Source: Christensenellales bacterium (GTDB taxonomy: Bacteria; Bacillota; Clostridia; Christensenellales; SZUA-584). Taken from it: a stretch of 64,000 nucleotides of DNA. The notes under the pieces were generated by a model, which did no database searches, had not been told where the DNA came from, and saw only the letters and a program-made list of their open reading frames with translations. The stretch spans positions 383,464 through 447,463 of the forward strand of contig JAXGMA010000001.1 of the NCBI GenBank assembly GCA_040768905.1, given 5' to 3'. Shown here one piece after another: positions 31,710 through 48,262 of this stretch (its first letter is position 1; each line of letters starts with the position of its first letter). A program made the position numbers and the translations under genes.

Positions 31710-31723
31710 GTTTGTGCTGCTAG

Positions 31724-32882: not shown

Positions 32883-32884
32883 GG

Positions 32885-33961: not shown

Positions 33962-33963
33962 AT

Positions 33964-34290: not shown

Positions 34291-35441
34291 GCTTGATTAA
34301 AGAAAAAGTGATCGATCCTAATATGTCTGCTGGAACAGACAATGGAAAGTCACTTTCACCCGATAATAAAACAAGTATACTTGAAAAAAAGTCGGAAATC
34401 AACGTTGATTCTGATCTGGATGACTGGCAAGAATATTTGCAAATGATCAGTTCGCCGGACTATCTATACACGATATCACTTACAGAGCTGTATGATACAG
34501 CGTATCGACCCAAGATTATGGTTGTCGATAATCTTCTTTGCTCTGGAGTGTATCTGTTTGCGGGAACACCAAAGGTGGGCAAATCCTTTTTTATGGCTCA
34601 ACTTGGGTACCATGTGAGCAGCGGTGTTCCCCTGTGGGAGTATCCTGTTCATAAAGGTACGGTGCTGTATCTTGCCTTGGAAGATGATTACGCAAGGTTG
34701 CAAAAACGTCTATCCCGTATGTTTGGTATGGACGGTATTGATAACTTTCACTTTGCAACTCATGCCAAAAACCTGCGGGAAGGTCTGGACGGTCAGTTAA
34801 AAAAGTTTATGCGGGAGCATCCCGATACAAAATTGATTATCATCGATACCCTTCAAAGAATCCGTGAGGGCGGCGGCGAGAAATATAGTTACGCCAGCGA
34901 TTATGAAATCGTAACACGGCTCAAGCAAACGGCAGACCAGTATAACATATGCATCCTTCTAGTCCATCACACGCGAAAGCAAAGTGCGGAGGATTGTTTT
35001 GACACCATATCTGGCACCAATGGATTGCTTGGAGCTGCGGATGGCGCTTTCATCATGCTGAAAGAGAAGAGAACGGATAACAAAGCGGTGCTGGATATTG
35101 TTGGACGAGATCAACAGGATCAGCGGCTATACCTTCAATTTGACCGTGAGTGCTGCGTATGGCAGCTTACAAAAGCGGAAACGCAATTATGGAACGAATT
35201 GCCTGACCCGCTACTGGGGTCTGTTGCAAAATTGCTCACGCCGGAAGCTACTGAATGGGTTGGCAGCGCAACCGAATTGATTGATAGATTGGATGAGATA
35301 GATATTCAACCCAACGTATTGACACGAAAATTGAATATTAGTGCGGATAGGCTGTGGAATGAATACGGCATCCGTATAGAGACCAAGCGTACTCACGCCG
35401 GAAGGATGGTTAAGCTCAAGCTTGATAGATTGGAGCCGTGA
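34287..35441 (+). CDS. RepA-type (AAA_25) replicative helicase
   Basis: GTPKVGKS, YLALED, IIIDTL, LVHHTRK, GAAD. Confidence 0.85.
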   Translation: MSLIKEKVIDPNMSAGTDNGKSLSPDNKTSILEKKSEINVDSDLDDWQEYLQMISSPDYLYTISLTELYDTAYRPKIMVVDNLLCSGVYLFAGTPKVGKSFFMAQLGYHVSSGVPLWEYPVHKGTVLYLALEDDYARLQKRLSRMFGMDGIDNFHFATHAKNLREGLDGQLKKFMREHPDTKLIIIDTLQRIREGGGEKYSYASDYEIVTRLKQTADQYNICILLVHHTRKQSAEDCFDTISGTNGLLGAADGAFIMLKEKRTDNKAVLDIVGRDQQDQRLYLQFDRECCVWQLTKAETQLWNELPDPLLGSVAKLLTPEATEWVGSATELIDRLDEIDIQPNVLTRKLNISADRLWNEYGIRIETKRTHAGRMVKLKLDRLEP

Positions 35442-35520
35442 CAATCGTGTCGGTCGTGTCGATATTTTTGATAGTGGTGGCAGTATGAAAAAAACCGTCA
35501 CCATCGTCACGACCGTCACG
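35437..35520. repeat. Iteron-like inverted 9-bp repeat arrays (putative ori)
   Basis: CGTGACAAT CGTGTCGGT CGTGTCGAT facing CCGTCACCA TCGTCACGA CCGTCACG, right after repA. Confidence 0.65.
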
Positions 35521-35600
35521 GGAGAGGGAGGGGATCACTATGTAAAAACAACACGACGGATTTGGATTATAAAAGATAAATAACAGAAAGGATTTACGAG

Positions 35601-36488
35601 ATGGCAGTAATCAAAATTGGAGTCGATAACGGCAACTACAATACAAAATCCTCGGAGCGGATGCTCTACGCCTCGGGGTACACCATGAGCGACAGGGAGT
35701 TTATCACCAGCGATATGCAACTGTTTTATGACGGCGCATACTATGCCATCGGTGGCAAACGCATGAACTTTCAACAGGAAAAAACCAAGGAGCAGGACAC
35801 CTTTATCTTAACTCTTCCGGCTATCGCAAACGCAATTAAAGAGGTGGGCGTATCGTATGCAGATGTATTGCTCGGTGTGGGCTTACCTATCGACATCTAT
35901 GGGACGCAGAAGGAAGCGTTTCGTCAATACTTCCTGCGGGATGATGTTCGCTTTCGCTTCGAGGACGCGGGTTACCATTGCCGGGTTGTGGACTGTAAGG
36001 TGTTCGCGCAGGGACACGCCGCGCTCTGTAAGTATTATCAGCAGCTTAAAGAGTACAACAACATCACACTAGTGGATATCGGTGGGTACACCGTGGATAT
36101 TCTAACGCTGCACGATTTCAAGGTGGACAGAGGGAGCTGCGCCAGCCTGCGCATGGGTACGATTACGCTGTTTAACGAAGTACGCGGCGAGCTGCAACAG
36201 CAAAATATCATATTGTCGGACGCGCTCATCGCTGACGCTATGCAGGGACGTATCCAACACGCTGAAAAAGAAAAAATCCGAGTAATTGTAGAGCGTCAAA
36301 TGCAGCGGTATGTGAAAGAGTTGCTTAACGCTTTGCGCGAACGCGGACTGGATTTGAAGCTACCTACCGTGTTTGCGGGTGGCGGCGCAGAACTGCTGGG
36401 GCATCGTCTTCATTCGCGGGAGGTAAATACCATCGTTATCCTTGATCGTTTCGCTAATGCCGAAGGCTATAAGCTTCTACTAGGGTGA
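35601..36488 (+). CDS. ParM/StbA actin-like ATPase
   Basis: GVDNGNYNTK, VDIGGYTVD, FAGGGA, FANAEGY. Confidence 0.9.
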   Translation: MAVIKIGVDNGNYNTKSSERMLYASGYTMSDREFITSDMQLFYDGAYYAIGGKRMNFQQEKTKEQDTFILTLPAIANAIKEVGVSYADVLLGVGLPIDIYGTQKEAFRQYFLRDDVRFRFEDAGYHCRVVDCKVFAQGHAALCKYYQQLKEYNNITLVDIGGYTVDILTLHDFKVDRGSCASLRMGTITLFNEVRGELQQQNIILSDALIADAMQGRIQHAEKEKIRVIVERQMQRYVKELLNALRERGLDLKLPTVFAGGGAELLGHRLHSREVNTIVILDRFANAEGYKLLLG

Positions 36489-36492
36489 GGAT

Positions 36493-36786
36493 ATGCGAGA
36501 GAGACGGTATCTGACGTTCGACATGGAAAACCTGCGTCACCGTGAGGCCTTCGACCTTTTCTCAGCACAGTCCGGAAAGCGACGTAGCGAATATGTTGTG
36601 GAGTGCATCCTTCAGGCACAGCAGGAAAATCGACTGGAGGAAACAATTCGGAAGGTGTTGACAGAAGCGTTGAAGGATATTTCCTTATCCGCTCTCGTCA
36701 TGGAGAAAAAAACGACAGATTTACAGATAACGGAGAGCTTATCCGATCTGCCGGACGTGCTGCTGTCCTCTCTGGAAGAAATATGA
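36493..36786 (+). CDS. Putative ParR-like adaptor
   Basis: Small gene directly after parM with RHH-like RSEYVVECI and acidic tail. Confidence 0.55.
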   Translation: MRERRYLTFDMENLRHREAFDLFSAQSGKRRSEYVVECILQAQQENRLEETIRKVLTEALKDISLSALVMEKKTTDLQITESLSDLPDVLLSSLEEI

Positions 36787-36976
36787 ACCATGATGGTGCA
36801 TAGATCAATATACAAAGCGGCTGTTTGCACCACTATGGTGCATTTTTATTTTCAGAGTGTTGCGCACATATGCAAAAGTGCTGTTGGGTTGGCGGATACA
36901 ACGAAGGGAGGCGGTATGTTTTGAAGCCTCGCAGAGCCCCGCGGGAGCGCCCACTGGGCATCTTTCAGCTCGTCTG

Positions 36977-37015
36977 AAAGTGTCATAGTGGGTAATACAC
37001 TTCCTTCGGAAGTGT
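36977..37015 (+). other. Putative MOBV oriT
   Basis: AAGTGTCATAGTGGGTAATACACTT resembles the pMV158-family oriT; overlapping inverted repeats; ~40 bp upstream of the relaxase. Confidence 0.65.
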
Positions 37016-37053
37016 CCGTCTCCCCAGCGCCGTTTGAAAGGAGTTATTGATGT

Positions 37054-38274
37054 ATGTCTAAGGTTGATCGCACAGTTGTTCGCAACAAAGCCTATCCACG
37101 CAACAATTTCTCTATTCGGGAGCGCCACAACGAGCGCAAGAACGAGATTTACTCCAATCCCGACATTGTACAGGAAAGAAGTGATCTTAATATTCGCTTC
37201 AAAAGCTGCGACGGTACATATTCACAAACTTTTGACCGACTGCTTGAAGAAGGAACGATCAGTACACGGGGCTTAAAGCCAGACGCGGATGTGTTTGCCG
37301 AGTTGGTGTTCGATGTAAACACGTCTTATTTTGACGAACACGGCGGATACAATTACGCCAAGCATTTCTTTGCCGAAGCGTACAAGATGGCTGTTCAGGA
37401 AGTGGGTGGAGAGCAAAATATCCTGTCAGCGGTCATGCACGCTGACGAGCGCAACAAGAGCTTGTCAGAGGAGCTTAATCGCTATGTTTATCACTATCAT
37501 CTGCACGTTGTATATGTCCCTGTGGTGGAGAAGGAAATCCGCTGGACAAAGCGCTGTAAGGACAAGACGCTGGTTGGCACGATCAAGGAAGTGATCCATC
37601 AGGTCAGCCATTCCAAGAAGTGGGCATCTGTAAAAGCGCTGGATGAGAACGGAGAGCCGATACGGACAGAGGACGGGAAGGCTGTGCTGATTCCGTCCTA
37701 TTCACTCCTGCAAGATAGGTTTTTTGAGCATATGAAAAACGCCGGGTTCAAGGATTTTGAGCGCGGCGTTCGCGGAAGCACGACGCAGCACCTATCGGTG
37801 TTGGATTACAAGATTCAGCAAGACAACGCGAAGCTGACGCGTATCGAGAAGGAGGTAGAGTCTCAGCAAAAGGAGCTGGACACTGTTTCCAAGCAGCTCA
37901 CCGTAGAGTGGCGGATTGGCAAGACGTTTCAAGAGCTTGATAAACTGGGCCGGAAAAAGATGTTTGGCAAAGTGACACTGGCTGAGAAGGATTTCAAGGA
38001 AGTAATATCCCTCGCAAAGGAAGGTGTTTTATCGCGCGGCCAAATTCATACGCTCAAACAGCAGGCGCAGAAAGTAACGGCAAGGGTTTGGGAATTAGAA
38101 GATAAGCTGACCACGCTATTTATGAGTACGAGAGATTTCAAGGAAGCTATGAAATTAGCGCCGCAGAGAGTGGAAGCGGTCTTCGCGGAGATATTCTCGC
38201 GGGATCGAGAAGAACGTGAAGCAAGGCGCAATATGCGCCATATCGGCAGAAAGCGTGATGAGCGCGAACGATGA
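37054..38274 (+). CDS. MobV/Pre relaxase (plasmid recombination enzyme family)
   Basis: HNER motif, MHADE..HYHLH, C-terminal coiled coil. Confidence 0.9.
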   Translation: MSKVDRTVVRNKAYPRNNFSIRERHNERKNEIYSNPDIVQERSDLNIRFKSCDGTYSQTFDRLLEEGTISTRGLKPDADVFAELVFDVNTSYFDEHGGYNYAKHFFAEAYKMAVQEVGGEQNILSAVMHADERNKSLSEELNRYVYHYHLHVVYVPVVEKEIRWTKRCKDKTLVGTIKEVIHQVSHSKKWASVKALDENGEPIRTEDGKAVLIPSYSLLQDRFFEHMKNAGFKDFERGVRGSTTQHLSVLDYKIQQDNAKLTRIEKEVESQQKELDTVSKQLTVEWRIGKTFQELDKLGRKKMFGKVTLAEKDFKEVISLAKEGVLSRGQIHTLKQQAQKVTARVWELEDKLTTLFMSTRDFKEAMKLAPQRVEAVFAEIFSRDREEREARRNMRHIGRKRDERER

Positions 38275-38280
38275 TTAAAA

Positions 38281-38312
38281 TAAGGCTCGCCATCTTTGGT
38301 GAGCCTTACTTT
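38281..38312 (+). terminator. Putative terminator after mob
   Basis: TAAGGCTC-GCCATCTTTGGT-GAGCCTTA followed by CTTT. Confidence 0.6.
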
Positions 38313-38493
38313 ACTATGAGCTATATGCATTTGTTAAATTTAACTATCATTTGTATTGTCTATATTTCGCTAAGGCGATATAATGAGAAAAATATCACAT
38401 AATCACACTCTCTGTGAGGAAAATCAAAATGGCCGATGCGGTAAAAGCATAACAAATAACCAAATACGATAAAACAGCAAAGGAAGCGCAGAC

Positions 38494-39966
38494 ATGATAA
38501 CTGGCGAATTGAAGAACAAAGTCGATAAACTGTGGGAGATGTTCTGGACAGGAGGACTCACAAACCCTCTGGACGTTATTGAGCAAATTACGTATCTCAT
38601 GTTTATCCGTGACCTCGACCAGACCGATAACACCCGGCAGAAGGAAAGCGGTATGCTGGGGATTCCATATACCAGCATATTCATAAATAAGGAACATTTG
38701 AAATGGTCTATGCTGCGGGACAAACCTGCGGAAACGATGTATCAGACCATGCAGGGCGAAGTGTTTCCGTTTATCAAGGAATTGAACGGCAACAGCGGCA
38801 CTTATGCCAAGTACATGAGCGATGCAATTTTCAAAGTGCCTACGCCACAGTTGCTGGATAAAATCGTGACAGCATTGGATGAGATGTATGAACTGATTGA
38901 TAAGCTGCCGGATAAAAAGGACGCGCGTGGCGATTTGTATGAATACATGCTCTCCAAGCTTTCTACGGCGGGTACCAACGGCCAGTTCCGCACACCGAGG
39001 CATATCATCCGCATGATGGTGGAGCTGCTCGACTTACAGCCGGACGATATCATTTGTGACCCAGCCTGCGGCACCAGCGGCTTCTTGGTGGCGGCGGGGG
39101 AATACCTCAAGGAACACCATCTTGACGAGATTTTTTATAACAAGGATGCCAAAATGCATTACGACAGCACCATGTTCACAGGCTACGACATGGATCGTAC
39201 CATGCTGCGCATCGGGGCAATGAACATGATGACCCACGGCATCACTAATCCAAATATCATTTACAAAGACAGCCTGTCCGATCAGAACACCGACGCGGGC
39301 AAATATACCAAAATACTGACCAATCCGCCGTTTAAGGGCAGCCTGGATTATGACATTGTGTCTACGGACCTCATAAAGGTAACCAAAACAAAAAAGACGG
39401 AGCTGCTGTTTCTGGCGCTGTTTTTACGCATGCTGAATAACGGCGGGCGCTGTGCGTCCATCGTACCGGATGGAGTGCTGTTTGGCTCATCCACGGCGCA
39501 TAAGAGCATACGCAAAGAAATCGTGGAGAACCACCGGCTGGAGGCTATCATATCCATGCCTTCCGGCGTGTTCAAGCCTTATGCCGGCGTGAGCACCGCC
39601 GTGATTATCTTCACTAAGACCGGTGCAGGCGGCACCGACAAGGTCTGGTTCTACGACATGCAGAGCGACGGCTATAGCCTCGATGATAAGCGCACGCCGC
39701 TGGAGCAAAGCGATATCCCTGATATCATAGCGCGTTTCCATGCGCTGGCGCAGGAAGAAGACCGTGAACGTACCGAGCAGAGCTTTCTTGTACCCAAGGA
39801 TGAAATCGTGGGTAATGACTACGACCTTTCTATCAACAAGTACAAGCAAAGCGCTTATGCGGAGGAAGATTACCCCCATCCGCTTGAAATTATGTTGGAG
39901 ATTAACGAACTGGAGATGGAGATCACAGCTGGGCTTGCGGAGCTGGAGGAGTTGCTCCATGAGTAA
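38494..39966 (+). CDS. hsdM: Type I R-M methyltransferase
   Basis: GQFRTPR, DPACGTSGFL, NPPF (N6-adenine type). Confidence 0.95.
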   Translation: MITGELKNKVDKLWEMFWTGGLTNPLDVIEQITYLMFIRDLDQTDNTRQKESGMLGIPYTSIFINKEHLKWSMLRDKPAETMYQTMQGEVFPFIKELNGNSGTYAKYMSDAIFKVPTPQLLDKIVTALDEMYELIDKLPDKKDARGDLYEYMLSKLSTAGTNGQFRTPRHIIRMMVELLDLQPDDIICDPACGTSGFLVAAGEYLKEHHLDEIFYNKDAKMHYDSTMFTGYDMDRTMLRIGAMNMMTHGITNPNIIYKDSLSDQNTDAGKYTKILTNPPFKGSLDYDIVSTDLIKVTKTKKTELLFLALFLRMLNNGGRCASIVPDGVLFGSSTAHKSIRKEIVENHRLEAIISMPSGVFKPYAGVSTAVIIFTKTGAGGTDKVWFYDMQSDGYSLDDKRTPLEQSDIPDIIARFHALAQEEDRERTEQSFLVPKDEIVGNDYDLSINKYKQSAYAEEDYPHPLEIMLEINELEMEITAGLAELEELLHE

Positions 39967-41095
39967 GTGGGAGATGGTTAGGCTGGGTGATATTGGTGAG
40001 TATGCTCCAAAATCTCATATAAAAGCTGGAGAAGGACAAAATAGAGGGAAATACAAATTTTTTACTTCTAGTAATAAACAAAATAAATATTTAGATAAGT
40101 TTTTATTTGATTTTCCCTCATTGATTTTCGGGACTGGAGGTAACGCAAGTATACATTATTGTGATACTCCATTTTCGGTTTCTACAGATTGCTTGGTATT
40201 CTATACAAATGATCCAACGATAAACCTAAAAACAATATACAGGTATTTAAACGGCAATATTTATTTACTTGAACAAGGCTTCAAAGGTGCAGGCCTTAAA
40301 CATATATCAAAAAAATACCTATCGAATGAAGTTTTTGTTCCTTTGCCGTCACCATCAGAACAGCAGAAAATTGTCGATATATTTGACTGTGCCGATGACC
40401 TCATACAAACGCGCAAGGCTCAGATTGACAAGCTGGATTTGCTGATAAAGTCGCAGTTTATCGAGATGTTTGGTTCTTCAGCAAAAGACTCTGACAGTTG
40501 GCCAGAAATGAAGATTAATGATATCTCAAAAGATATGCGCACTGGGCCTTTTGGTAGCGCATTGCTTCATTCTGAATTTGTTGACAATGGTGTCTTTGTA
40601 CTTGGTATTGACAATGCTGTTGAGAATCACTTTTCTTATAATCGTATGAGGTATATTACTGAAGAAAAATATGAACAATTAAAGCGTTATACTGTTCATT
40701 CTGGCGACGTGATTATAACGATTATGGGTACGATTGGTCGTTCGGCAGTTATCCCGGATAATTTTCCAAAAGCAATTAACACCAAACATCTAGCTTGTTT
40801 AACTCTTAAGAAAAATAGTGCGAACCCTTATTTTATCTGCTACGCATTACAAGTGCATCCACTTATATTGAAGCAGTTACAATCGCAGTCAAAAGGCGCA
40901 ATAATGGCTGGTTTAAATCTTAATATCATAAAAAATCTCCGCATGCCAGTACCTCCACTAAAACTTCAAAATAAGTTTGTGGATTTTTTCATCCAGATTA
41001 ATAGACTAAAAGATTCTTTGCAGCAATCCCATGAAAAGCTTGAACTCAACTACAAATCTTTAACTCAAAAATGCTTTAGGGGGGAGATATTCTGA
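39959..41095 (+). CDS. hsdS: Type I R-M specificity subunit
   Basis: ATG 39959 overlaps hsdM; WEMVRLGD, VPLPSPSEQQKI and PVPPLKLQNKF conserved regions; two TRDs. Confidence 0.92.
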   Translation: MSKWEMVRLGDIGEYAPKSHIKAGEGQNRGKYKFFTSSNKQNKYLDKFLFDFPSLIFGTGGNASIHYCDTPFSVSTDCLVFYTNDPTINLKTIYRYLNGNIYLLEQGFKGAGLKHISKKYLSNEVFVPLPSPSEQQKIVDIFDCADDLIQTRKAQIDKLDLLIKSQFIEMFGSSAKDSDSWPEMKINDISKDMRTGPFGSALLHSEFVDNGVFVLGIDNAVENHFSYNRMRYITEEKYEQLKRYTVHSGDVIITIMGTIGRSAVIPDNFPKAINTKHLACLTLKKNSANPYFICYALQVHPLILKQLQSQSKGAIMAGLNLNIIKNLRMPVPPLKLQNKFVDFFIQINRLKDSLQQSHEKLELNYKSLTQKCFRGEIF

Positions 41096-41096
41096 T

Positions 41097-42731
41097 ATGA
41101 GAATCAGATGGGATGAACTGATCAAATTGATGACGCCAAAGCTAAGCCGTGAGAACTTTATTGCACAGGTTGTAGAACACGGTTATTTTGCTGAACAGTT
41201 TCCCACCTGCTTTTCTTCAAAAATATTCGCACAGAAATTAGACAATTTGCTACCCTGTATTTCATGTTCAAGCAAAAAAGTAAAAAAAGAAGATAAAACT
41301 ACGCTGCCTACTACACTATCAAGCTATAAAAACGATATATCAAGGCGAATACTTTCGTTGCCTAATCCAAAAGCCTTTTTGCGTCTTGCCGTGCTTATGC
41401 AAGAGAATTGGGATGAAATCCAAGAATTTGCCGAGAGTCCTAACTCCCTTTCCCCCATCACCTATATACATAAATATAAGTCAAGTCAAAGAGCTTCCTT
41501 AAATAGCGAAAATCTGAGGGAAAGCCAATTCTCTAAAAGTGATTTTGTTGATGGTATAAAAAACTGTATTGAAGCCTCGTTGGGTTACAATTATCGGCTA
41601 AAGCTAGACATTTCAAATTGCTATAATTCGATATACACACATTCCGTTGCATGGGCAGTATGCGGTAAAGCTCAAGCAAAGGAATATATGCGTACAAAAC
41701 AGCCACAAGCCTTACGACCAAAATATGATTTGGCTGATAAATTAGATTCTTTCATGAGATATCAAAAAAACAACGAAACAAATGGAATTTTGGTTGGGCC
41801 TTTCACATCTCGAATTTTTTCTGAAATTATCCTTGCTGCAATAGATAAAGCATTGGATGAGGAAGGATATCAGTTTAGAAGGTATGTAGATGATTACAAA
41901 TTCTATTTTCGTACAGATTCTGAAGCTCAAGCAAATTTACCAAAGATTGAACGCACACTCAACGAATACAACTTAAATATAAACACTGAGAAAATTGAAA
42001 TTGTCCGTTTTCCTTTTGAGGTGATATCTCAAATAAAAGAGATTTTTGATAGTACTTTTGAAAAGGCAGGTGTATTTGGCGTACTTAACGCCGCCTCTCA
42101 GCTATACTCAAATGGAGAAAAGGGAGCCTTTAAATATGTGCTTAAATATATCAAGAACAAAAAACCCACTCTAGATGATTTTACGTTAGTAATTTCCTCG
42201 TTAATTAACATTATGATTTTAGAGCCAAAATGCGGAAGACACATTATTTCCTATTTCAAAAAACATATGTATTCTTGGAAAAAGGACATCATTACCGAGC
42301 TAATTAATAATGAGTTATCCAATAGCATTAGCAACGAACTACAAGAAGAAGCATTGCTTTTCATGCAAATTATTAAAGAATTAAAGCTCAGCTTATCTGC
42401 ATGTAATCTTATAGATATTCTCGGTTGTTTAAATGATTTTGCAATAATCGTTGCACTTGATATTTGGAAAAGCAGAAGAAGCTCAGTTATAAGAACCCAA
42501 GGTGAAGCAAGAAAAATAAATCAAGCAATTGAACAACTATGCCTTAGTCTTCAAGGAGAACAGTATTCTGGTGCAAGGTGGCTATTGCTATACGAAATAA
42601 AGATTCATGGATTGGTACCACTTGGGAAACAACCAACACCAAATGCGGATAGCTTCTTTGATAAAATGTATTATAGCAAAGTCACTTTTTATCAAAGCAT
42701 CGGTCGCAAACTGTATTATCCAAGGAGGTGA
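41097..42731 (+). CDS. Abi/UG (DRT)-class reverse transcriptase with helical C-terminal domain
   Basis: RRILSLPNP, LDISNCYNSIYTHS, GILVGPFTSRIFSEIIL, RYVDDY, LNINTEK; ~230 aa helical tail ending WLLLYE. Confidence 0.88.
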   Translation: MRIRWDELIKLMTPKLSRENFIAQVVEHGYFAEQFPTCFSSKIFAQKLDNLLPCISCSSKKVKKEDKTTLPTTLSSYKNDISRRILSLPNPKAFLRLAVLMQENWDEIQEFAESPNSLSPITYIHKYKSSQRASLNSENLRESQFSKSDFVDGIKNCIEASLGYNYRLKLDISNCYNSIYTHSVAWAVCGKAQAKEYMRTKQPQALRPKYDLADKLDSFMRYQKNNETNGILVGPFTSRIFSEIILAAIDKALDEEGYQFRRYVDDYKFYFRTDSEAQANLPKIERTLNEYNLNINTEKIEIVRFPFEVISQIKEIFDSTFEKAGVFGVLNAASQLYSNGEKGAFKYVLKYIKNKKPTLDDFTLVISSLINIMILEPKCGRHIISYFKKHMYSWKKDIITELINNELSNSISNELQEEALLFMQIIKELKLSLSACNLIDILGCLNDFAIIVALDIWKSRRSSVIRTQGEARKINQAIEQLCLSLQGEQYSGARWLLLYEIKIHGLVPLGKQPTPNADSFFDKMYYSKVTFYQSIGRKLYYPRR

Positions 42732-42736
42732 ACACT

Positions 42737-45700
42737 ATGCGCACCAATTTCGATTTTTTAACCAAAGATCCGCAGTTTGAACCCTTCGCCGAGGCGGCTG
42801 TTTCGGCGGAGCGTGTGCTGCCTATTTCGCCTGCCCTGTGCGCCACCGCGTGCCGTGCGGCGCTGGAGTTTGCCGTCAAATGGGTCTATAGCGTCGATGG
42901 TTCCCTCAAAAAGCCATACGAGGACAAGCTAGTTACGTTGGTCGGCACCGAGGATTTCAAAGATTTGCTTCCTGTAGGTATGATGCAAAAGCTGAATTAC
43001 CTGCGTAAGGTAGGCAATAACGCCACCCATAATGCCAAGGGCGTGAGCCGGGATCAAGCGATACTGGCCTTGCAAAACCTCCACAGCTTTATGGACTTTG
43101 TGGCGTATTGCTATGGCGTGGATTATAACGAAGTTTCCTTTGATAGATCGTTGCTGGAGGAAAAACCGGCACCTGTTCCTGTGATACCGCCGGAAATGGA
43201 AGAAGTGGATTTCCAGACGCTGCTGGATGAGAACTTCCCCAAGCGCGAGAAGCTTACCGCCAAGCGTGTGGCGCAACTTAAGCAAGGCTATACCGTCAAG
43301 CCTATGGATATGACGGAGACGCAGACCCGCAAGGCGTATATCGACGTCATGCTGCAGGACGCCGGCTGGCAGCGCGGCCCCAACTGGGCCGAAGAATATC
43401 CCATCGACGAAATGCCCAACAAGTCAGGCAAAGGCGCGGCCGATTATGTGCTGCTGGGCGATAACGGACTGCCGCTGGCAGTCATTGAGGCCAAGCGCAC
43501 CAGCGTCAATGTGGAAAAAGGGCGTCAGCAGGCAGTGCTGTATGCGGACTTTCTGGAGAAGAAATTTGGACAGCGCCCAATCATCTTTATGACCAATGGC
43601 TACGAGACGCGTATCTGGAGTGATAAGTACTATCCTGAGCGGTTGGTATCCGGTATCTATTCCAAACGGGATTTGGAAAAAGACTTTAACATCATGAAAA
43701 GCCGTACTGCATTGAATGCGGTGCGGGTCAACGATGACATATCGAACCGATACTATCAGAAAGAAGCCATACAGGCAATATGCGATGCGTTTGACGATCG
43801 CAACCGGCGCAAGGCGCTGCTGGTCATGGCCACCGGCAGCGGTAAGACGAGGACGGTCATTTCCCTTGCGGATGTGCTGATTCGGCACGGATGGGTAAAG
43901 AATCTGCTGTTTCTCGCCGACCGCAATGCTTTGGTAACACAAGCCAAGCGTGCCTTTCATAACCTGATGCCCAATCTTTCTCTATGCAACCTTACCGAGG
44001 GGAAGGAGGAGGCCAGCGCCCGCGCGATATTTTCAACCTACCAAACCATGATGAACTGCATTGATTCTACACGTGATGAGCAGGGGCAGCGGCTGTTTAC
44101 GCCGGGGCATTTTGACCTGATTATCGTCGATGAGGCGCACCGAAGCATCTATAACAAGTATAAGGACATTTTCACCTACTTTGACGCGCTGCTGGTCGGA
44201 TTAACCGCGACACCTAAGGATGAAATAGATAAAAACACCTACGGCATTTTTGATCTGGAAAGCGGTGTGCCCACTTATGGATACGAGCTTTCTCAGGCGG
44301 TGCAGGACGGGTATCTGGTGGACTTTGTATCCATCGAAACTGAATTAAAATTTATGACTAAGGGCATAGCTTATGCGGAGCTTTCTCCGGAGGAGCAAGA
44401 GGAGTATGAAAACACGTTTGCCGATGAGGACGGCAACGTGCCGGAGAACATCGATTCCAGTGCCATAAATGAGTGGATTTTCAATCAAGATACCATCAAA
44501 AAGGCGCTGCATATCCTCATGCAGCATGGGCAGCGTGTAGACTTTGGTGAGAAAATCGGTAAGACGATTATCTTCGCCAAGAGTCACAAGCATGCCGAAA
44601 AAATAATGAAAGTCTGGGCTCAGGAGTTCTCCGATTACCCGAGCCACTATGCGCGGGTAATCGATAACTATACCAACTACGCCCAAAGCCTGATCGACGA
44701 TTTTTCTGATAAAAACAAGTTACCGCAGATAGCTATCTCGGTGGACATGCTTGATACCGGTATCGATGTGCCAGAAATCTTAAACCTTGTCTTTTTCAAA
44801 AAGGTGATGAGTAGGGGTAAATTCTGGCAAATGATTGGCCGTGGAACGCGCACCTGCGAAAAACTTATCGACGGAGAGGACAAACAGCGGTTTTATATTT
44901 TTGACCTGTGCCGAAACTTTGAGTTTTTCCGGCTTCATGCTAAGGGCCGCGAGGCCGGAACGGTGAGCACGTTGCAGGAGCGGATGTTCAATACGAAAGT
45001 TGAAATGGTTTACAAACTACAAGAGATCGGGTTTCAGACGGATACGCTAAAAGAGTACCGCAAAGTGCTTGTGCAGGATCTGGCGGCACAAGTGAAGGCG
45101 CTGCCAAGGGATAATTTTGCGGTAAAGCAGCATCTCCGTATCATAGATAAATATCAGTCCGAGGATGATTTTGATACCTTGACCTATGAGAACACGCTGC
45201 AGATTGCCGAACATATTGCTCCGCTCGTGTTGCCATCGGGCGATGATATTTCAGCGGCTCGGTTTGATATGCTGATCTACCAGATTGAGCTTGCTATGTT
45301 GGCTGGGAAAAGCACAAAGCGTGCAAAAAACGATGTGGTTCGCAAAGCGTCTGAGCTATCAAGGTATGGCAACATACCAGCAATCGCGCAGCAGCAGGAG
45401 CTCATCGAGCAGATTGTACATAACGGTTTTCTTGAGCGGGCGGGCATTTCGGACTATGAGGATGTCCGTATTAAGCTGAGAGATCTAATTAAGTTTATTC
45501 CAGAAGATGAACGTGTGCGATATGACACAAACTTTGCCGACGATATCCTATCCATAGAATGGAATGAGTCTGAGCTTGATAATGATGATTTGGTCAATTA
45601 CAAGAAAAAAATCAGCTATTATATCCTTCAGCATCAGGATATTACGGCCATTGCAAAGCTTAAAGGTAATAAGCCGTTGACTTCTGAAGATGTACGTTCT

Positions 45701-46054
45701 CTCGAGCACATCTTATGGAGCGAGCTGGGTACAAAGGAGCAATATGACGCTCAGTATGGGAAGACCCCTCTGGGTGAACTTGTGCGCTCTATTGTGGGGC
45801 TCAGTCAGCAGGCCGCCAACGAGGCGTTTTCTCGCTTCCTCAATGATGTTGCGATTGACAGTCAACAGATGTTTTTTGTCCGGCAGGTTGTTAATTATAT
45901 CGTCAGAAACGGCATGATGAAAGACTTAGCAGTATTACAGGAAAGCCCTTTTACCGATATGGGTAGTATCAGTGAACTATTTGATGATGCGACAATGTTT
46001 ATGGATTTGCGGACAGTTATTGAAGGGATAAACCGAAATGCCATGGTGGCTTGA
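42737..46054 (+). CDS. hsdR: Type I R-M restriction subunit (EcoEI/EcoAI-like, DUF4145-like N-terminus)
   Basis: ADYVL..IEAKR nuclease, MATGSGKT, DEAH, QMIGRGTR. Confidence 0.95.
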   Translation: MRTNFDFLTKDPQFEPFAEAAVSAERVLPISPALCATACRAALEFAVKWVYSVDGSLKKPYEDKLVTLVGTEDFKDLLPVGMMQKLNYLRKVGNNATHNAKGVSRDQAILALQNLHSFMDFVAYCYGVDYNEVSFDRSLLEEKPAPVPVIPPEMEEVDFQTLLDENFPKREKLTAKRVAQLKQGYTVKPMDMTETQTRKAYIDVMLQDAGWQRGPNWAEEYPIDEMPNKSGKGAADYVLLGDNGLPLAVIEAKRTSVNVEKGRQQAVLYADFLEKKFGQRPIIFMTNGYETRIWSDKYYPERLVSGIYSKRDLEKDFNIMKSRTALNAVRVNDDISNRYYQKEAIQAICDAFDDRNRRKALLVMATGSGKTRTVISLADVLIRHGWVKNLLFLADRNALVTQAKRAFHNLMPNLSLCNLTEGKEEASARAIFSTYQTMMNCIDSTRDEQGQRLFTPGHFDLIIVDEAHRSIYNKYKDIFTYFDALLVGLTATPKDEIDKNTYGIFDLESGVPTYGYELSQAVQDGYLVDFVSIETELKFMTKGIAYAELSPEEQEEYENTFADEDGNVPENIDSSAINEWIFNQDTIKKALHILMQHGQRVDFGEKIGKTIIFAKSHKHAEKIMKVWAQEFSDYPSHYARVIDNYTNYAQSLIDDFSDKNKLPQIAISVDMLDTGIDVPEILNLVFFKKVMSRGKFWQMIGRGTRTCEKLIDGEDKQRFYIFDLCRNFEFFRLHAKGREAGTVSTLQERMFNTKVEMVYKLQEIGFQTDTLKEYRKVLVQDLAAQVKALPRDNFAVKQHLRIIDKYQSEDDFDTLTYENTLQIAEHIAPLVLPSGDDISAARFDMLIYQIELAMLAGKSTKRAKNDVVRKASELSRYGNIPAIAQQQELIEQIVHNGFLERAGISDYEDVRIKLRDLIKFIPEDERVRYDTNFADDILSIEWNESELDNDDLVNYKKKISYYILQHQDITAIAKLKGNKPLTSEDVRSLEHILWSELGTKEQYDAQYGKTPLGELVRSIVGLSQQAANEAFSRFLNDVAIDSQQMFFVRQVVNYIVRNGMMKDLAVLQESPFTDMGSISELFDDATMFMDLRTVIEGINRNAMVA

Positions 46055-46094
46055 GGTAAAAAAGGTTTTGATTTGAACTTTCAAAGGAGGTTCT

Positions 46095-46307
46095 ATGGCT
46101 ACATATGAAGCGATACAGGAATATGTGAAAAGGAAATACAACGTCAGTATCAAATCATGCTGGATCGCTCACATGAAGGAGGTTTGCGGTTTGGATGTGA
46201 AAATGTCTCCCAAACGATATGATGAAAACAAGAGAACCAACCCCTGCCCCGACAGCAAAAAGTACATGATCGAAGACGCGTTCCGGCACTTTGGTATGGT
46301 CGGATAG
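46095..46307 (+). CDS. Small stand-alone protein resembling the C-terminal extension of RumA/RlmD
   Basis: AGGAGG RBS; ATY..I..YV...IA..K..CG...CP..K...I..A..HFGM pattern. Confidence 0.65.
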   Translation: MATYEAIQEYVKRKYNVSIKSCWIAHMKEVCGLDVKMSPKRYDENKRTNPCPDSKKYMIEDAFRHFGMVG

Positions 46308-46351
46308 CTCTCGGATAGTTTTCATATTACAGTGGCGCTCTTGATAATATA

Positions 46352-46360
46352 TGATATAAT
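46352..46360 (+). promoter_or_regulatory. Extended -10 promoter for satD
   Basis: TG-A-TATAAT directly before the repeat array. Confidence 0.6.
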
Positions 46361-46362
46361 AT

Positions 46363-46471
46363 TGATGCGGTTTTAATGGCATCATGGGCAGTGATGCGGT
46401 TTTAATAGCATCATGGGCAGTGATGCGGTTTTAATGGCATCATAGGCAGTGATGCGGTTTTAATGGCATCA
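46363..46471. repeat. Tandem array of four 22-bp palindromes, 29-bp period
   Basis: TGATGC-GGTTTTAAT(G/A)-GCATCA at 46363, 46392, 46421, 46450 with T(G/A)GGCAG linkers. Confidence 0.95.
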
Positions 46472-46512
46472 AGCAATGGCGCAGGAAAAAACGACAAAGA
46501 GAGGAAGATAAA

Positions 46513-47193
46513 ATGTACTGTGCAATTATTGGAGACATAGTTGAATCTAAAAAGATCACAAAAAGAGAAGAAATCCAGAATAAATTGGCTAAGAAGTTAA
46601 CTCAAATAAATAAGGAAATACCCAATATTGCATCCAACTTTTCGATAACACTCGGAGATGAGTTTCAAGGTCTGTTACAGTCGTGTGATCATGTTATAAA
46701 AATAGTAAATGCAGTTAAATTAGAAATGTATCCAATTAAAATTCGTTTTGGAGTAGGTCTAGGGGAAATGAGCACCTCTATAAACAAAGAGCTTCCACTT
46801 GGTTCTGACGGTAAAGCATATCATAATGCAAGATCTGCAATAGACGAGATAAAGAAAATCGAAAAACAATATGAGCCACCTGCCATAAATGTAATGATAA
46901 AAATACAAAATGAGATTCTACTCAGTGATAGAAAATATATTGATGTAAATTTGCTGAATATCAATTTTAGTGCATGTTCATTTATTGAGAAGTCATGGAC
47001 TCTAAAGCAAATAGAGGTATTAAAACTAAAGGAGAAAAACCTTACCCAAAGGCAGATTGCTGAAAAGCTAAATATAACTCAATCAAATGTGCAAAGAAGA
47101 ATAGATGCAGCTGGTTATTATACTTATAACTATTGTTTGAATAATATTCAAATATATTTAAAAGAATTATGGGAGACGATGAATGTATACTAA
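46513..47193 (+). CDS. satD: SatD-family protein (nucleotide-cyclase-like palm domain plus C-terminal HTH)
   Basis: AIIGDIVESK, GDEFQG, RFGVGLG, DGKAYHNAR, TQRQIAEKLNITQSNV. Confidence 0.85.
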   Translation: MYCAIIGDIVESKKITKREEIQNKLAKKLTQINKEIPNIASNFSITLGDEFQGLLQSCDHVIKIVNAVKLEMYPIKIRFGVGLGEMSTSINKELPLGSDGKAYHNARSAIDEIKKIEKQYEPPAINVMIKIQNEILLSDRKYIDVNLLNINFSACSFIEKSWTLKQIEVLKLKEKNLTQRQIAEKLNITQSNVQRRIDAAGYYTYNYCLNNIQIYLKELWETMNVY

Positions 47194-47926
47194 TTTTCTT
47201 ATGCTTTTACTTATATCACACTTTATAGGGGATTATTATTTGCAGAGTGCAGAACTTGCTGAACTAAAACAAAAAAAGTCTATTTACGTCTTAAAACATG
47301 GAATAATATATCCTTTACCATGCTTAATACTGCTAAGTTTAGTTTTTAATGTATCATTATTATTATATTTTGGATTATATTGTGTTTTGCATATAGGAGT
47401 GGATCTCCTAAAAAGTTTTGTATTGAAAACGCACAACTCGGATCATAAAAAGAATAAAGCCATTTATGTTATAGATCAATTACTACACATACTTACTATT
47501 GTGGTGCTATCAATAATATACTCATCCAATTATGGTGATGTAAAGTTTCTGGGTTTTATTGAATCATGGATAACTATTAACAGCATTAATGCTCACGAGA
47601 TACTTAGACTAATACTTTTGATAGTAATCATTTTCAAGCCTACCAATATGACTTTCAAAGTGCTATTCGATAACCTAAAAATAAAAAGAGATAATAAGGA
47701 AAATACTGATCCTATAAAAAATATGGGCGCAACTATAGGTAATCTGGAAAGAGCGCTTATGATAGTATTGCTAATTCTGCAACAGTATACGGCGATAGGT
47801 CTTGTAATTGCTGGGAAATCAATTGCAAGATTTAATAGTAATATTGCAGTCGAATACTTTATAATTGGAACATTTTATAGTATATTAGCCACAATCATAC
47901 CGTTTACATTATTATGGGCATTATGA
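47183..47926 (+). CDS. DUF3307 membrane protein (SatE-like)
   Basis: SHFIGDYYLQ, H..VD, DQLLH, GATIGNLER, KSIARF, EYFIIGT; overlaps satD. Confidence 0.85.
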   Translation: MYTNFLMLLLISHFIGDYYLQSAELAELKQKKSIYVLKHGIIYPLPCLILLSLVFNVSLLLYFGLYCVLHIGVDLLKSFVLKTHNSDHKKNKAIYVIDQLLHILTIVVLSIIYSSNYGDVKFLGFIESWITINSINAHEILRLILLIVIIFKPTNMTFKVLFDNLKIKRDNKENTDPIKNMGATIGNLERALMIVLLILQQYTAIGLVIAGKSIARFNSNIAVEYFIIGTFYSILATIIPFTLLWAL

Positions 47927-48125
47927 TAGAGGAGTATATTATGACCAATTATTCCTTTATGAATCAAGAAAGAGGTGCAGTGAGTTTCTAGGCGCCTGAG
48001 TACGCCATTGATTTGTAATATCGCATCAACTATTATAAACAAGTTTGGAGGGTTTTAATTTGAATACACACAAGCATAGTGTTATGCTATAATGCAAAAG
48101 AAGGTCTTTATTATGAGTTGGTTTC

Positions 48126-48262
48126 CGGCAACATTCTGGCAACAAAAAATCAGATAGCCAAAAAGCTATGGGTAACTGATACAATACAAATACCACGAGC
48201 CATATTACATAAGCAGAAATGTTTAAGTCATGCTCTCAAGGAGCGAGTGGGAATGATTGAAC
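48126..48262 (+). repeat. attR copy A
   Basis: GGCAAC x2 arm, TAAGC-N6-GTTTA at 48210, core CGAGTGGGAATGATT at 48244. Confidence 0.85.

What the first reader, a model, noticed from the sequence alone, without database searches (positions are those of the whole stretch)
38494..46054. Abi/DRT-class reverse transcriptase embedded inside a type I R-M operon (hsdM-hsdS-RT-hsdR)
Seen: a 544-aa RT (SIYTHS, GILVGP..SRI..E, YVDD, helical C-terminus) starts 1 bp after the hsdS stop and ends 5 bp before the hsdR ATG, so there is no room for its own promoter or an adjacent ncRNA. The RT and the hsdS TRDs are visibly more AT-rich than hsdM and hsdR. Known: this motif set marks Abi/UG RTs (AbiK, Abi-P2, DRT4-like), some of which are protein-primed, template-independent antiphage polymerases. 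The hsdS-hsdR slot is where PrrC sits in EcoprrI, held latent by the R-M complex until phage anti-restriction triggers it. Inference: an RT-based guard of a type I R-M enzyme, or a coupled two-layer defence, carried on a mobile element. I cannot assign the RT subclade.
Basis: partly seen in the sequence, partly recalled or inferred. Interest (0 to 1): 0.85.

Follow-up and report, generated by a model that had tools for sequence, protein, structure and literature searches.

The report
Defence reverse transcriptase inside restriction operon
A reverse-transcriptase-like antiphage gene of the little-studied UG30 group sits exactly in the short spacer between two genes of a type I restriction-modification operon on a mobile island, most likely as a self-sufficient second defence layer that rides along with the operon.

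Summary
hsdM (38494-39966), hsdS (39959-41095), a 544-aa RT (41097-42731) and hsdR (42737-46054) are packed with -8, +1 and +5 nt between them. The RT and hsdS are AT-rich (GC 0.35 against 0.49-0.50).

The RT subclade is resolved: UG30, a class 1 UG/Abi group (PADLOC E 6e-180). Its nearest solved relatives are DRT4/UG15, DRT6 and AbiK. The catalytic YVDD and the residues aligned to the DRT4 RNase pair are invariant in 50 of 50 UG30 sequences.

The operon lies on a ~16.7-kb integrase- and relaxase-bearing island at the 3' end of guaA.

The guard idea is not supported as a family trait. Only 7 of 54 other UG30 loci have an hsdS nearby. A ~91%-identical operon in another metagenome appears to lack the RT. 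None of 29 sampled operons of this HsdR family has it, and their hsdS-hsdR slot holds other cargo (SieB-like, GmrSD-like, PBECR2 nuclease).

The link does recur. It needs at least four changes on the RT tree, and DRT4 genes also sit right after hsdS.

Best reading: an autonomous DRT4/DRT6-like abortive-infection enzyme embedded in the operon, a phenomenon already described as "guilt by embedding". It is a new member of a known kind and of moderate interest.

The parts
38356..38384 (+). Best promoter-like site (10 of 12 consensus positions), upstream of hsdM. It is the presumed promoter of a four-gene transcript.
   Evidence: It follows a terminator-like hairpin at 38281-38308, after the relaxase gene. 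This is a consensus match only, and the scan as a whole is not above chance.
38494..39966 (+). hsdM, type I methyltransferase subunit (490 aa)
   Evidence: N6_Mtase 7.8e-66, HsdM_N 2.6e-14, PADLOC MTase_I 3.1e-179.
39959..41095 (+). hsdS, specificity subunit (378 aa, two target-recognition domains). It overlaps hsdM by 8 nt and is AT-rich.
   Evidence: Methylase_S 1.6e-32 in two stretches; ATG at 39959; GC 0.354.
41080..41086 (+). Purine-rich Shine-Dalgarno-like run inside the end of hsdS, 10 nt before the RT start. In RT-less relatives the hsdS end is followed within about 17 nt by hsdR.
   Evidence: Read directly from the sequence; compared with L002.
41097..42731 (+). UG30 class 1 UG/Abi reverse transcriptase (544 aa). 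RT palm/fingers cover roughly residues 20-310, with YVDD at 263-266. The helical repeat domain covers roughly 313-526. Candidate priming Tyr127 lies in a low-confidence loop. His182 and Asp217 align to the DRT4 RNase pair.
42717..42736 (+). Remnant of the native hsdS-hsdR spacer, with the hsdR Shine-Dalgarno (AAGGAGG). The RT reading frame runs 4 codons into it and uses its TGA as stop.
   Evidence: 13 of 17 positions before the hsdR ATG are identical to the L002 hsdS-hsdR spacer (my count by eye); only the window RT and its 94% relative carry the extra C-terminal residues.
42737..46054 (+). hsdR, restriction/translocase subunit (1105 aa) with an N-terminal DUF4145 domain
   Evidence: ResIII 1.9e-40, SWI2_SNF2, HSDR_N, EcoEI_R_C 5.9e-20, DUF4145 1.5e-9 (residues 26-118), REase_I 5.9e-156.
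31554..48258 (.). Integrative mobilizable island of about 16.7 kb at the 3' end of guaA. It is bounded by an 18-nt direct repeat (31554-31571 and 48241-48258, 17 of 18 identical). It carries an HTH gene, tyrosine integrase (32885-33961), NikA-like protein, AAA_25, actin-like ParM, Mob_Pre relaxase (37054-38274), the hsd-RT operon, and a SatD/DUF3307 pair.
   Evidence: GC drops at about 31500. The boundaries are inferred from the repeat, not shown by an empty site.

Best explanation
The 544-aa ORF is an intact UG30-group, class 1 UG/Abi reverse transcriptase. It was inserted, as coding sequence only, into the ~17-nt hsdS-hsdR spacer of an otherwise ordinary type I R-M operon carried on an integrative mobilizable island at guaA.

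It is transcribed with hsdM-hsdS-hsdR and translated by coupling to hsdS (inferred from the spacing).

By homology to DRT4/UG15, DRT6/UG12 and AbiK it most likely works on its own, not through the R-M enzyme. The proposed steps, all inferred, are:
1. It assembles as a hexamer.
2. It makes short random ssDNA without a template, primed on one of its own side chains (candidate Tyr127), using the YVDD site.
3. On infection, a phage ssDNA-binding protein and/or a rise in dNTPs switches on an effector activity, probably the His182/Asp217 RNase site.
4. The infected cell is stopped (abortive infection).

Embedding gives co-expression and co-transfer with a first-line DNA-cutting defence. The pair therefore acts as two layers, but neither needs the other.
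For: Identity:
- PADLOC RT_UG30 scores 6.1e-180 over 5-493 of 493 model positions. The next best are Drt6 at 3.5e-88 and Drt4 at 2.8e-80.
- A profile of 31 homologs hits DRT4/UG15 chains at 1.7e-48, the DRT6 chain 9wy8 at 1.9e-41 and AbiK at 6e-24.
- The AF2 model has pLDDT 84.3 and pTM 0.85, with a helical C-terminal half.
- Foldseek ranks UG15, DRT6, DRT4, AbiK and Abi-P2 first, with TM 0.55-0.79.

Conserved chemistry:
- D171, Y180, H182, W186, D217, R221, E227, V264, D265, D266 and K299 are identical in 50 of 50 UG30 rows; Y263 in 49 of 50. The aligned residues are the same in 4 of 4 DRT4 rows, except V264, which is Ile there.
- H182 and D217 align to DRT4 H160 and D192, the reported RNase pair.
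- Tyr127 is present in 43 of 50 rows and lies in a loop with pLDDT under 50.

Published mechanism of the relatives:
- DRT4 and DRT6 are single-gene systems. They make protein-primed, untemplated ssDNA and are triggered by phage SSB-like proteins.

Autonomy of the RT:
- 47 of 54 other UG30 loci have no hsdS hit in the fetched flank.
- Neighbours include NUDIX, Schlafen-type helicase, AIPR, HD, AbiTii, RloB and housekeeping genes.
- Bacillus plasmid copies stand alone.
- The window RT is 48-57% identical over at least 95% of its length to copies I classed as stand-alone or whose contigs are too short to judge.

Autonomy of the R-M:
- Contig record 19 of run X7 matches hsdM and hsdR at about 91% and jumps from 41096 to 42737.
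- 0 of 29 other operons of this HsdR family in 400 sampled genomes have the RT within 1.5 kb.

The slot is a general embedding site:
- 14 of those 29 have extra DNA or no hsdS within 1.5 kb of hsdR.
- The cargo scanned includes SieB-like, GmrSD_N, PBECR2 nuclease, KilA-N and unknown ORFs.

Insertion anatomy.

The phenomenon is described for type I R-M in Payne et al. 2024 (passages) and for TgvAB (passages).
Against: - No UG30 enzyme has been tested in any paper I found, so every biochemical step is by analogy.
- DRT4's priming Tyr125 aligns to Ser137 of the window RT. That position is S in 20, C in 20, N in 4 and I in 3 of 50 rows (3 gaps), so it is not conserved.
- The alternative, Tyr127, is missing in 7 of 50 rows, including the Bacillales branch. 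The priming residue is therefore unsettled.
- H182 lies in a motif conserved across the class. Its conservation may reflect polymerase structure rather than an RNase role.
- The R-M link is more than random co-location. It needs at least 4 changes on the RT tree and involves at least two HsdR architectures. RTs of very different identity (65% and 27%) are attached to homologous operons. DRT4 genes sit 5 nt after hsdS in 3 of 4 loci of another group. This could mean a functional tie that genomic data cannot see.
- In the X7 contig the length between hsdM and hsdR is about 590 nt more than simple absence of the RT predicts, and the tool reports 'between: not known'. Something else may occupy the slot there.
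Confidence: 0.6

Rival explanations
1. PrrC-like guard. The RT is held latent by the type I enzyme and is released when a phage anti-restriction protein disables it, as PrrC is by EcoprrI and T4 Stp.
For: - It occupies the same kind of position as prrC, embedded in a type I locus (passages). The exact hsdS-hsdR order of prrC is my recollection.
- It is packed for coupled translation.
- In the window's RT clade all four copies with known context are R-M-linked: the window, L002, L003 and the X9 relative.
- RTs of 65% and 27% identity are attached to homologous operons.
- DRT4 genes directly follow hsdS in L060, L061 and L063.
Against: - PrrC is reported as almost exclusively embedded. For UG30, 7 of 54 loci have an hsdS nearby.
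- The RT's position is not fixed. It follows hsdS in the window and L059. It follows hsdR in L002, L003 and L024. It lies behind other inserted genes in L038 and L040.
- No R-M subunit or domain is shared by all cases. DUF4145 is absent from the L038 HsdR.
- Embedded and non-embedded RTs are alike along their whole length.
- DRT4 and DRT6 act alone, with SSB-type triggers.
- The RT has no sequence relation to PrrC.
Confidence: 0.1
2. Functional cross-talk without a latent complex. For example, the RT's ssDNA or RNase activity is tuned by products of restriction (DNA ends, degraded DNA, dNTP changes), or the RT protects against phages selected by the R-M. Selection would then favour the pair beyond simple co-transfer.
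For: - Class 1 RTs (UG30, DRT4, DRT3b) recur in or next to type I operons.
- DRT4 is reported to respond to dNTP levels and to ssDNA-binding proteins.
- TgvAB protected less without its surrounding cluster for several phages (passage).
Against: There is no direct evidence. The same slot holds unrelated cargo. I did not measure enrichment against other single-gene defences, and such co-location is generally expected in defence islands.
Confidence: 0.17
3. Inactive passenger, or a templated retroelement (retron, group II intron or class 2 DRT-like RT that uses an ncRNA).
For: The gene is AT-rich relative to its neighbours, so it is a recent arrival. UG30 is untested.
Against: - The frame is intact and all family-invariant residues are present.
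- A ~91% relative keeps the frame and both junctions.
- There is no non-coding space, and no Rfam hit at E<=1 on either strand.
- Retron and group II RTs match only the palm region, at E about 5e-7 to 2e-6.
- The fold is that of class 1, with a helical repeat domain.
Confidence: 0.05

Closest known systems
UG30 group of class 1 UG/Abi reverse transcriptases (Mestre et al. 2022, PMC9226505)
   Same: The best full-length PADLOC model match is RT_UG30. It clusters with six other sequences that also score best as RT_UG30. It has an RT domain plus a C-terminal helical repeat domain.
   Different: In the passages I read, the paper only defines the group and predicts defence from individual loci. It gives no mechanism and does not mention type I R-M embedding. 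Its supplementary figure with those loci could not be opened.
DRT4 (UG15), single-gene antiphage RT (PMC12783706; bioRxiv 2026.10.21.760695 and 2026.10.27.754916)
   Same: It is the best solved relative by sequence profile and by fold. The YxDD site and the residues aligned to the RNase pair H160/D192 are conserved. It is a single gene with no ncRNA.
   Different: About 24% identity. The Drt4 models score 100 orders of magnitude worse than UG30. The priming Tyr125 position is not conserved in UG30.
DRT6 (UG12) and AbiK
   Same: They share the class 1 architecture. DRT6 is the second-best PADLOC model and second in the fold ranking. Both are reported as hexamers that make protein-primed, untemplated DNA.
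   Different: They are separate groups. AbiK primes from an N-terminal Tyr; the 7z0z entry title names a Y44F variant. No equivalent was identified here.
PrrC in the EcoprrI type I locus
   Same: It is a gene embedded in a type I R-M operon that acts as an abortive second line.
   Different: It is an unrelated protein (ABC ATPase plus anticodon nuclease). PrrC is almost always embedded and is held latent by the R-M enzyme. UG30 is mostly not embedded.
Defence genes embedded in type I R-M: TgvAB in Vibrio cholerae VPI-2 (PMC11411939) and 'guilt by embedding' (Payne et al. 2024, bioRxiv 10.1101/2024.01.29.577857)
   Same: These are same-strand insertions of autonomous defence genes inside hsd operons. 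They are proposed to give linked transfer, co-regulation and complementary coverage. This is what the comparative data show here.
   Different: The cargo here is a class 1 RT. The main text of Payne et al. mentions only a single embedded DRT type III. Their figure and supplement that break embedded systems down by type were not available to me.

Membership tests
UG/Abi class 1 RT, group UG30 | Best, full-length match to the group's profile | tested here: met
   RT_UG30 scores 6.1e-180 over residues 18-534 and model positions 5-493 of 493. The next best is Drt6 at 3.5e-88.
UG/Abi class 1 RT, group UG30 | RT palm with a YxDD catalytic motif | tested here: met
   YVDD lies at 263-266. D265 and D266 are identical in 50 of 50 rows. 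RVT_1 scores 3.6e-14.
UG/Abi class 1 RT, group UG30 | C-terminal alpha-helical repeat domain in place of the thumb | tested here: met
   The AF2 model has helices from 313 to 526 at pLDDT mostly 84-97. Full-length fold matches to UG15, DRT6 and AbiK have TM 0.70-0.79.
UG/Abi class 1 RT, group UG30 | Placement inside the UG30 branch of the published UG/Abi tree | not testable with these tools
   The published tree and alignment are supplementary files, which are closed. My own tree places it with six other sequences that score best as UG30, apart from DRT4 (support 100).
DRT4 (UG15) | Best match to the Drt4 profiles | tested here: not met
   The Drt4 models score 2.8e-80 or worse, against 6.1e-180 for UG30.
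DRT4 (UG15) | Conserved priming tyrosine (Tyr125) | tested here: not met
   The aligned position is Ser137. Across 50 UG30 rows it is S in 20, C in 20, N in 4, I in 3 and a gap in 3. It is Y in 4 of 4 DRT4 rows.
DRT4 (UG15) | His/Asp RNase pair (H160, D192) | tested here: met
   They align to H182 and D217, identical in 50 of 50 rows. This shows conservation only, not activity.
DRT4 (UG15) | Hexamer; untemplated protein-primed ssDNA synthesis; SSB-type trigger | not testable with these tools
   Two copies of the protein exceed the size limit of the complex predictor. Biochemistry is needed.
PrrC-like guard of type I R-M | Gene embedded within a type I hsd operon | tested here: met
PrrC-like guard of type I R-M | Family found almost exclusively embedded in type I R-M | tested here: not met
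   7 of 54 other UG30 loci have an hsdS hit in the flank. Among the 41 loci with at least 3 kb of upstream flank, 6 do. The five further loci checked (L121-L125: two plasmid, one same-genus, two viral) have no Hsd hit.
PrrC-like guard of type I R-M | Latent complex with the R-M enzyme, released by anti-restriction proteins | not testable with these tools
   I ran no complex prediction, because no subunit is a consistent neighbour. Pull-downs and Ocr/ArdA co-expression are needed.
Type I restriction-modification system | Intact hsdM, hsdS (two target-recognition domains) and hsdR on one strand | tested here: met
Integrative mobilizable element | Integrase, relaxase and flanking direct repeats at a conserved gene end | tested here: met
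   Phage_integrase 3e-18, NikA-like 3.3e-11 and Mob_Pre 2.9e-34. An 18-nt repeat of the guaA end lies at 31554 and 48241. No empty site was examined.

The most novel reading that the evidence does not exclude
Class 1 UG/Abi RTs (UG30 here, DRT4 in other loci) have repeatedly been recruited into the hsdS-hsdR slot because they monitor the type I enzyme or its inhibition. That would make them an RT-based, PrrC-like guard whose untemplated ssDNA synthesis or RNase is released when anti-restriction proteins disable HsdMSR.
Probability: 0.1. Interest if true: 0.8.

Novelty: new member of a known kind. Interest (0 to 1): 0.42.

Why it matters
UG30 is a predicted but, as far as my four searches found, untested defence RT group. 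This locus offers a compact natural construct: one promoter, four genes and an intact R-M.

Natural comparators exist. An RT-less allele and an RT-bearing allele are each about 91% identical to this operon, and related operons carry the RT behind hsdR.

Together these make a clean test possible of whether a DRT4-like enzyme acts alone or reads the state of a restriction enzyme.

The locus also shows how a defence gene can be spliced, as bare coding sequence, into a 17-nt intergenic spacer while keeping translational coupling on both sides. And it adds class 1 RTs to the cargo of the type I 'embedding' slot.

Tried and rejected
- **Group II intron, retron, DGR or class 2 DRT with ncRNA.** Rejected. 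There is no non-coding space and no Rfam hit at E<=1 in 36000-48000. The PDB profile search matches those RTs only in the palm, at about 5e-7 to 2e-6.
- **Close DNA relatives in E. coli genomes and protein relatives in phage records.** None found. IMG/VR gave only 2 UG30-like loci among 6.
- **RNA evidence of expression.** No RNA holder is listed among the sequencing runs, so nothing can be said about expression.
- **Parts of the stretch without contig cover in runs X1 and X5**. Not interpreted.
- **Complex prediction of the RT with Hsd subunits.** Considered and not run. No subunit is a consistent neighbour across the R-M-linked loci, RT plus HsdM or two RT copies exceed 1000 residues, and my report does not claim binding.
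- **Contexts of the very closest protein hits** (P0001 at 94%, P0002-P0004 at 69-75%). The laid contigs of run X9 stand in for one such relative.
- **My HsdS, HsdM and HsdR profiles.** I built them iteratively from the loci themselves, so they may miss distant families. The HsdR profile clearly does: it missed the L038, L021, L076 and L063 HsdR proteins that Pfam later found. I therefore used the HsdS hit as the marker for a type I system and spot-checked neighbours with Pfam.
- **Dereplication.** Loci were not dereplicated. L013 and L033 are identical, as are L015 and L036, and L051 and L053. L011, L012 and L014 are near-identical.
- **Literature.** Searches returned no paper that describes a UG30 or other RT embedded in a type I R-M operon. 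The hits for hsdS/hsdR in the AbiA and AbiK papers were only strain genotypes.
- **Closed supplements.** Those of Mestre 2022 (defence-context figure and tables) and of Payne 2024 (embedded systems by type) may already show this arrangement.

Full report
**What is there**

The window holds four same-strand genes with almost no space between them.
- hsdM, 38494-39966.
- hsdS, 39959-41095. Its ATG lies 8 nt inside hsdM.
- A 544-aa ORF, 41097-42731.
- hsdR, from the ATG at 42737 to 46054.

The hsdS stop and the ORF's ATG are separated by one base. A purine-rich ribosome-binding run lies 10 nt upstream. The ORF's TGA is followed by 5 nt and the hsdR ATG, and AAGGAGG lies inside the ORF's last codons.

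Pfam and PADLOC identify a complete type I system:
- HsdM: N6_Mtase 7.8e-66.
- HsdS: two Methylase_S stretches.
- HsdR: ResIII, HSDR_N, EcoEI_R_C and an N-terminal DUF4145.

GC is 0.354 for hsdS and 0.351 for the ORF, against 0.500 for hsdM and 0.488 for hsdR. No Rfam family matches 36000-48000 on either strand at E<=1. The best promoter-like site lies just upstream of hsdM, although the scan as a whole is not above chance.

**Which reverse transcriptase**

- The ORF matches the PADLOC model RT_UG30 over its whole length (6.1e-180). Drt6 (3.5e-88), Drt4 (2.8e-80), UG31 and AbiK follow far behind.
- UG30 was defined by Mestre et al. 2022 as a new class 1 UG/Abi group. It was predicted to be defensive from individual loci. 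In the passages I read there is no experiment on it.
- A protein search found 359 relatives among the 8000 candidates scored. The best were 94%, 75%, 75%, 69% and 65% identical, and named hits came from Bacillota and Spirochaetota.
- A profile of 31 of them hits solved DRT4/UG15 chains (1.7e-48), the chain 9wy8 (1.9e-41) and AbiK.
- The AlphaFold2 model is confident (pLDDT 84.3, pTM 0.85). It has a palm/fingers half and a helical half at residues 313-526.
- Foldseek ranks UG15, 'hexameric DRT6' (9wy8), DRT4, AbiK and Abi-P2 first, with TM 0.55-0.79.
- The window ORF is therefore a class 1 UG/Abi RT of group UG30. It is not a member of DRT4 or DRT6, but those are its closest characterised relatives.

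**Residues**

I aligned 50 UG30 sequences and 4 DRT4 sequences taken from the fetched loci.
- D171, Y180, H182, W186, D217, R221, E227, V264, D265, D266 and K299 are identical in 50 of 50 UG30 rows. Y263 is identical in 49 of 50. The DRT4 rows carry the same residues at the aligned positions, except Ile in place of V264.
- H182 and D217 align to DRT4 H160 and D192. A 2026 preprint describes these as the catalytic pair of the effector RNase (section 7; alignment).
- DRT4's priming Tyr125 (section 9 of PMC12783706) aligns to Ser137, which is not conserved in UG30.
- Tyr127, ten residues upstream, is present in 43 of 50 rows and lies in one of four segments with pLDDT under 50. It is my candidate primer, but this is inference. 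The Bacillales branch lacks it.

**The surroundings**

- Upstream lie guaB and guaA. Then come an HTH gene, a tyrosine integrase, a NikA-like protein, an AAA_25 protein, an actin-like ParM and a Mob_Pre relaxase.
- Downstream lie a 70-aa ORF, four 29-nt tandem repeats, and a SatD/DUF3307 pair. After that come DUF5677/DUF4145, a 315-aa ORF and a GmrSD-type enzyme.
- The last 18 nt of guaA are repeated at 48241-48258, with 17 of 18 identical. This bounds an island of about 16.7 kb.
- A 98-nt repeat (48126 and 50129) and a duplicated HTH gene (31745 and 52422) suggest further islands stacked behind it.
- 'Carried on a mobile element' is therefore supported.

**How the RT got there**

- The two closest RTs in the species-representative genomes are L002 and L003, both 65% identical. 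They lie in operons whose HsdM and HsdR are 85-87% identical to the window's; in L003, HsdR matches in two pieces at 65% and 78%.
- In those operons the order is hsdM-hsdS-hsdR-RT.
- In L002, hsdS is followed by a 17-nt spacer and then hsdR. By my count, 13 of those 17 positions equal the last 17 nt before the window's hsdR ATG.
- So the window RT's final four codons and its stop codon are old spacer. Only the window RT and its 94% relative carry that C-terminal extension.
- The inserted piece is therefore bare coding sequence, from 41097 to about 42717.

Public contigs support both states.
- In run X9, two contigs at about 91% identity cover 41066-41604 and 41597-44793. Both junctions are kept, while the second target-recognition domain of hsdS differs.
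- In run X7, a 7348-nt contig matches hsdM and hsdR at about 91% and jumps from 41096 to 42737, skipping exactly the RT.
- Two caveats apply to the X7 contig. The short side of that joint is 31 nt. The contig also has about 590 nt more between hsdM and hsdR than simple absence predicts, so other sequence may lie in the slot.

**How often UG30 is R-M-linked**

Scans of species genomes and metagenomes gave 54 other UG30-like loci.
- Seven have an hsdS hit in the fetched flank: L002, L003, L021, L024, L038, L040 and L059.
- Among the 41 loci with at least 3 kb of upstream flank, six do.
- Six of the seven are same-strand, tightly packed clusters:

| Locus | Gene order |
|---|---|
| L002, L003, L024 | hsdR then RT |
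| L038 | hsdS, RhuM, hsdR, YgjP, RT |
| L040 | hsdM, hsdS, ABC-type ATPase, small ORF, RT |
| L059 | hsdS then RT (contig ends) |

- The other loci sit next to NUDIX (5 loci), Schlafen-type helicases, AIPR, an HD protein, AbiTii, RloB or plain housekeeping genes.
- Two Bacillus plasmid copies stand alone.
- Among 40 relatives of the host genome, one other has a UG30 gene. It is 61% identical, cut by a contig end, and lies 685 nt behind a glycine dehydrogenase gene.
- On a quick maximum-likelihood tree of 54 rows, the R-M-operon label needs 4 changes. The shuffled mean is 5.8, and 10 of 500 shuffles were as low. The window, L002 and L003 form a clade with support 99.

**The R-M side**

- 40 of 401 sampled genomes of the phylum (own genome included) have an HsdR of this family at E<=1e-50.
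- In the 29 loci other than the window's own, none has the RT within 1.5 kb.
- The slot between hsdS and hsdR varies (my count):

| State of the hsdS-hsdR slot | Loci (of 29) |
|---|---|
| Tight (about 30 nt or less) | 12 |
| Gap of about 120 nt | 1 |
| At least about 200 nt extra, or no hsdS within 1.5 kb | 14 |
| Cut by a contig end | 2 |

- Ten slot ORFs were scanned. They include a SieB-like protein, a 613-aa GmrSD-like enzyme, a PBECR2 nuclease, a KilA-N protein, an integrase next to a second hsdS, and five ORFs with no Pfam match.
- Other class 1 RTs use the same neighbourhood:
  - DRT4 genes lie 5 nt after hsdS in L060, L061 and L063.
  - In L063, DRT4, a GmrSD-like gene and a Schlafen-type gene all lie between hsdS and hsdR.
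  - L062 has hsdS, Shedu, DRT4.
  - L076 has a DRT3 pair right after hsdR.

**Reading**

The slot is a general docking place for autonomous defence genes. This phenomenon is described for type I R-M by Payne et al. 2024 ('guilt by embedding'). In that paper PrrC is the example that is almost always embedded, and a single embedded DRT type III is mentioned (passages). TgvAB in Vibrio cholerae is another example (passages).

The UG30 RT behaves like facultative cargo. Most copies are not embedded, the R-M exists without it, and embedded and free copies are alike along their whole length.

The characterised relatives work alone.
- They make protein-primed, untemplated ssDNA.
- They are hexamers.
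- They are triggered by phage SSB-like proteins and, in one report, by raised dNTP levels.
- DRT4 is reported to have an RNase as its effector.

I therefore favour an autonomous DRT4/DRT6-like abortive-infection enzyme that gains expression and transfer from the operon (confidence 0.6).

A PrrC-like guard is not excluded (0.1). Several observations are more than a single accident and deserve an experiment:
- the repeated capture;
- homologous operons carrying RTs of 65% and 27% identity;
- the exact preservation of translational coupling.

**Novelty**

The RT group and the embedding phenomenon are both in print. The specific combination, and the anatomy of the insertion, were not found in four literature searches. 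The closed supplements of Mestre 2022 and Payne 2024 may contain it.

I rate it a new member of a known kind, of moderate interest. It is chiefly a ready-made test case for whether class 1 RTs ever read the state of a restriction enzyme, and a first handle on the untested UG30 group.

Noticed in passing
window 31554-31571 and 48241-48258; 32885-38274: An island of about 16.7 kb sits at the 3' end of guaA. It is bounded by an 18-nt repeat of the guaA end (17 of 18 identical). It carries a tyrosine integrase, NikA-like protein, AAA_25, actin-like ParM and Mob_Pre relaxase.
   Followed up: partly
window 48126-48223 and 50129-50226; 31745-32044 and 52422-52721: A 98-nt repeat (87% identical) and a duplicated HTH gene segment (300 nt, 81% identical) suggest several islands stacked in tandem behind guaA. 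The next segment holds DUF5677/DUF4145, a 315-aa ORF with no Pfam match, and a GmrSD-type type IV enzyme at 50222-52042.
   Followed up: partly
window 46363-46471: Four tandem 29-nt units, each with a 7-bp hairpin followed by a T-rich tail, lie between a 70-aa ORF (46095-46307) and the SatD-family gene. They could be stacked terminators or protein-binding repeats.
   Followed up: no
window 42737-43300 (HsdR residues 26-118): The HsdR of this family carries an N-terminal DUF4145 domain ahead of the nuclease domain. A weak DUF4145/DUF5677 match recurs in the ORF at 48279-49157. I recall, but did not check, that DUF4145 has been grouped with HEPN-like domains. If so, the restriction subunit may carry its own RNase-type module.
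   Followed up: no
L009 7631-8035, L010 7596-7982, L013 7601-7981, L032 856-1269, L033 5601-5981: A small NUDIX gene lies directly upstream of the UG30 RT (gaps -8 to +21 nt) in 5 of 54 UG30 loci. L013 and L033 carry identical RTs. This may be a two-gene UG30 variant.
   Followed up: partly
L063 3160-12795; L062; L060; L061: DRT4 (UG15) genes lie 5 nt after hsdS. In L063 the order is hsdM, hsdS, DRT4, GmrSD-like, Schlafen/AlbA_2, hsdR. In L062 it is hsdS, Shedu, DRT4, PD-(D/E)XK nuclease.
   Followed up: partly
L076 8-7305; L028 6248-11222: DRT3 pairs (a 403-414-aa gene plus Drt3b) lie directly beside type I hsdR genes. In L076 the order is hsdS, HEPN (pEK499_p136-like), hsdR, 414-aa gene, Drt3b.
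   Followed up: partly
L088, L104, L116, L117, L118, L119: In the same HsdR family the hsdS-hsdR slot carries other cargo: a SieB-like protein, a 613-aa GmrSD-like enzyme, a PBECR2 nuclease, a KilA-N protein and several ORFs with no Pfam match.
   Followed up: partly
L119 2026-5382: Two hsdS genes flank a tyrosine recombinase gene within a type I operon, the layout of a phase-variable specificity shufflon.
   Followed up: no
window 46513-47926: A SatD-family gene with a C-terminal HTH, overlapped by a DUF3307 gene, lies at the island's right end. Both are very AT-rich (GC 0.29-0.31) and of unknown role.
   Followed up: no
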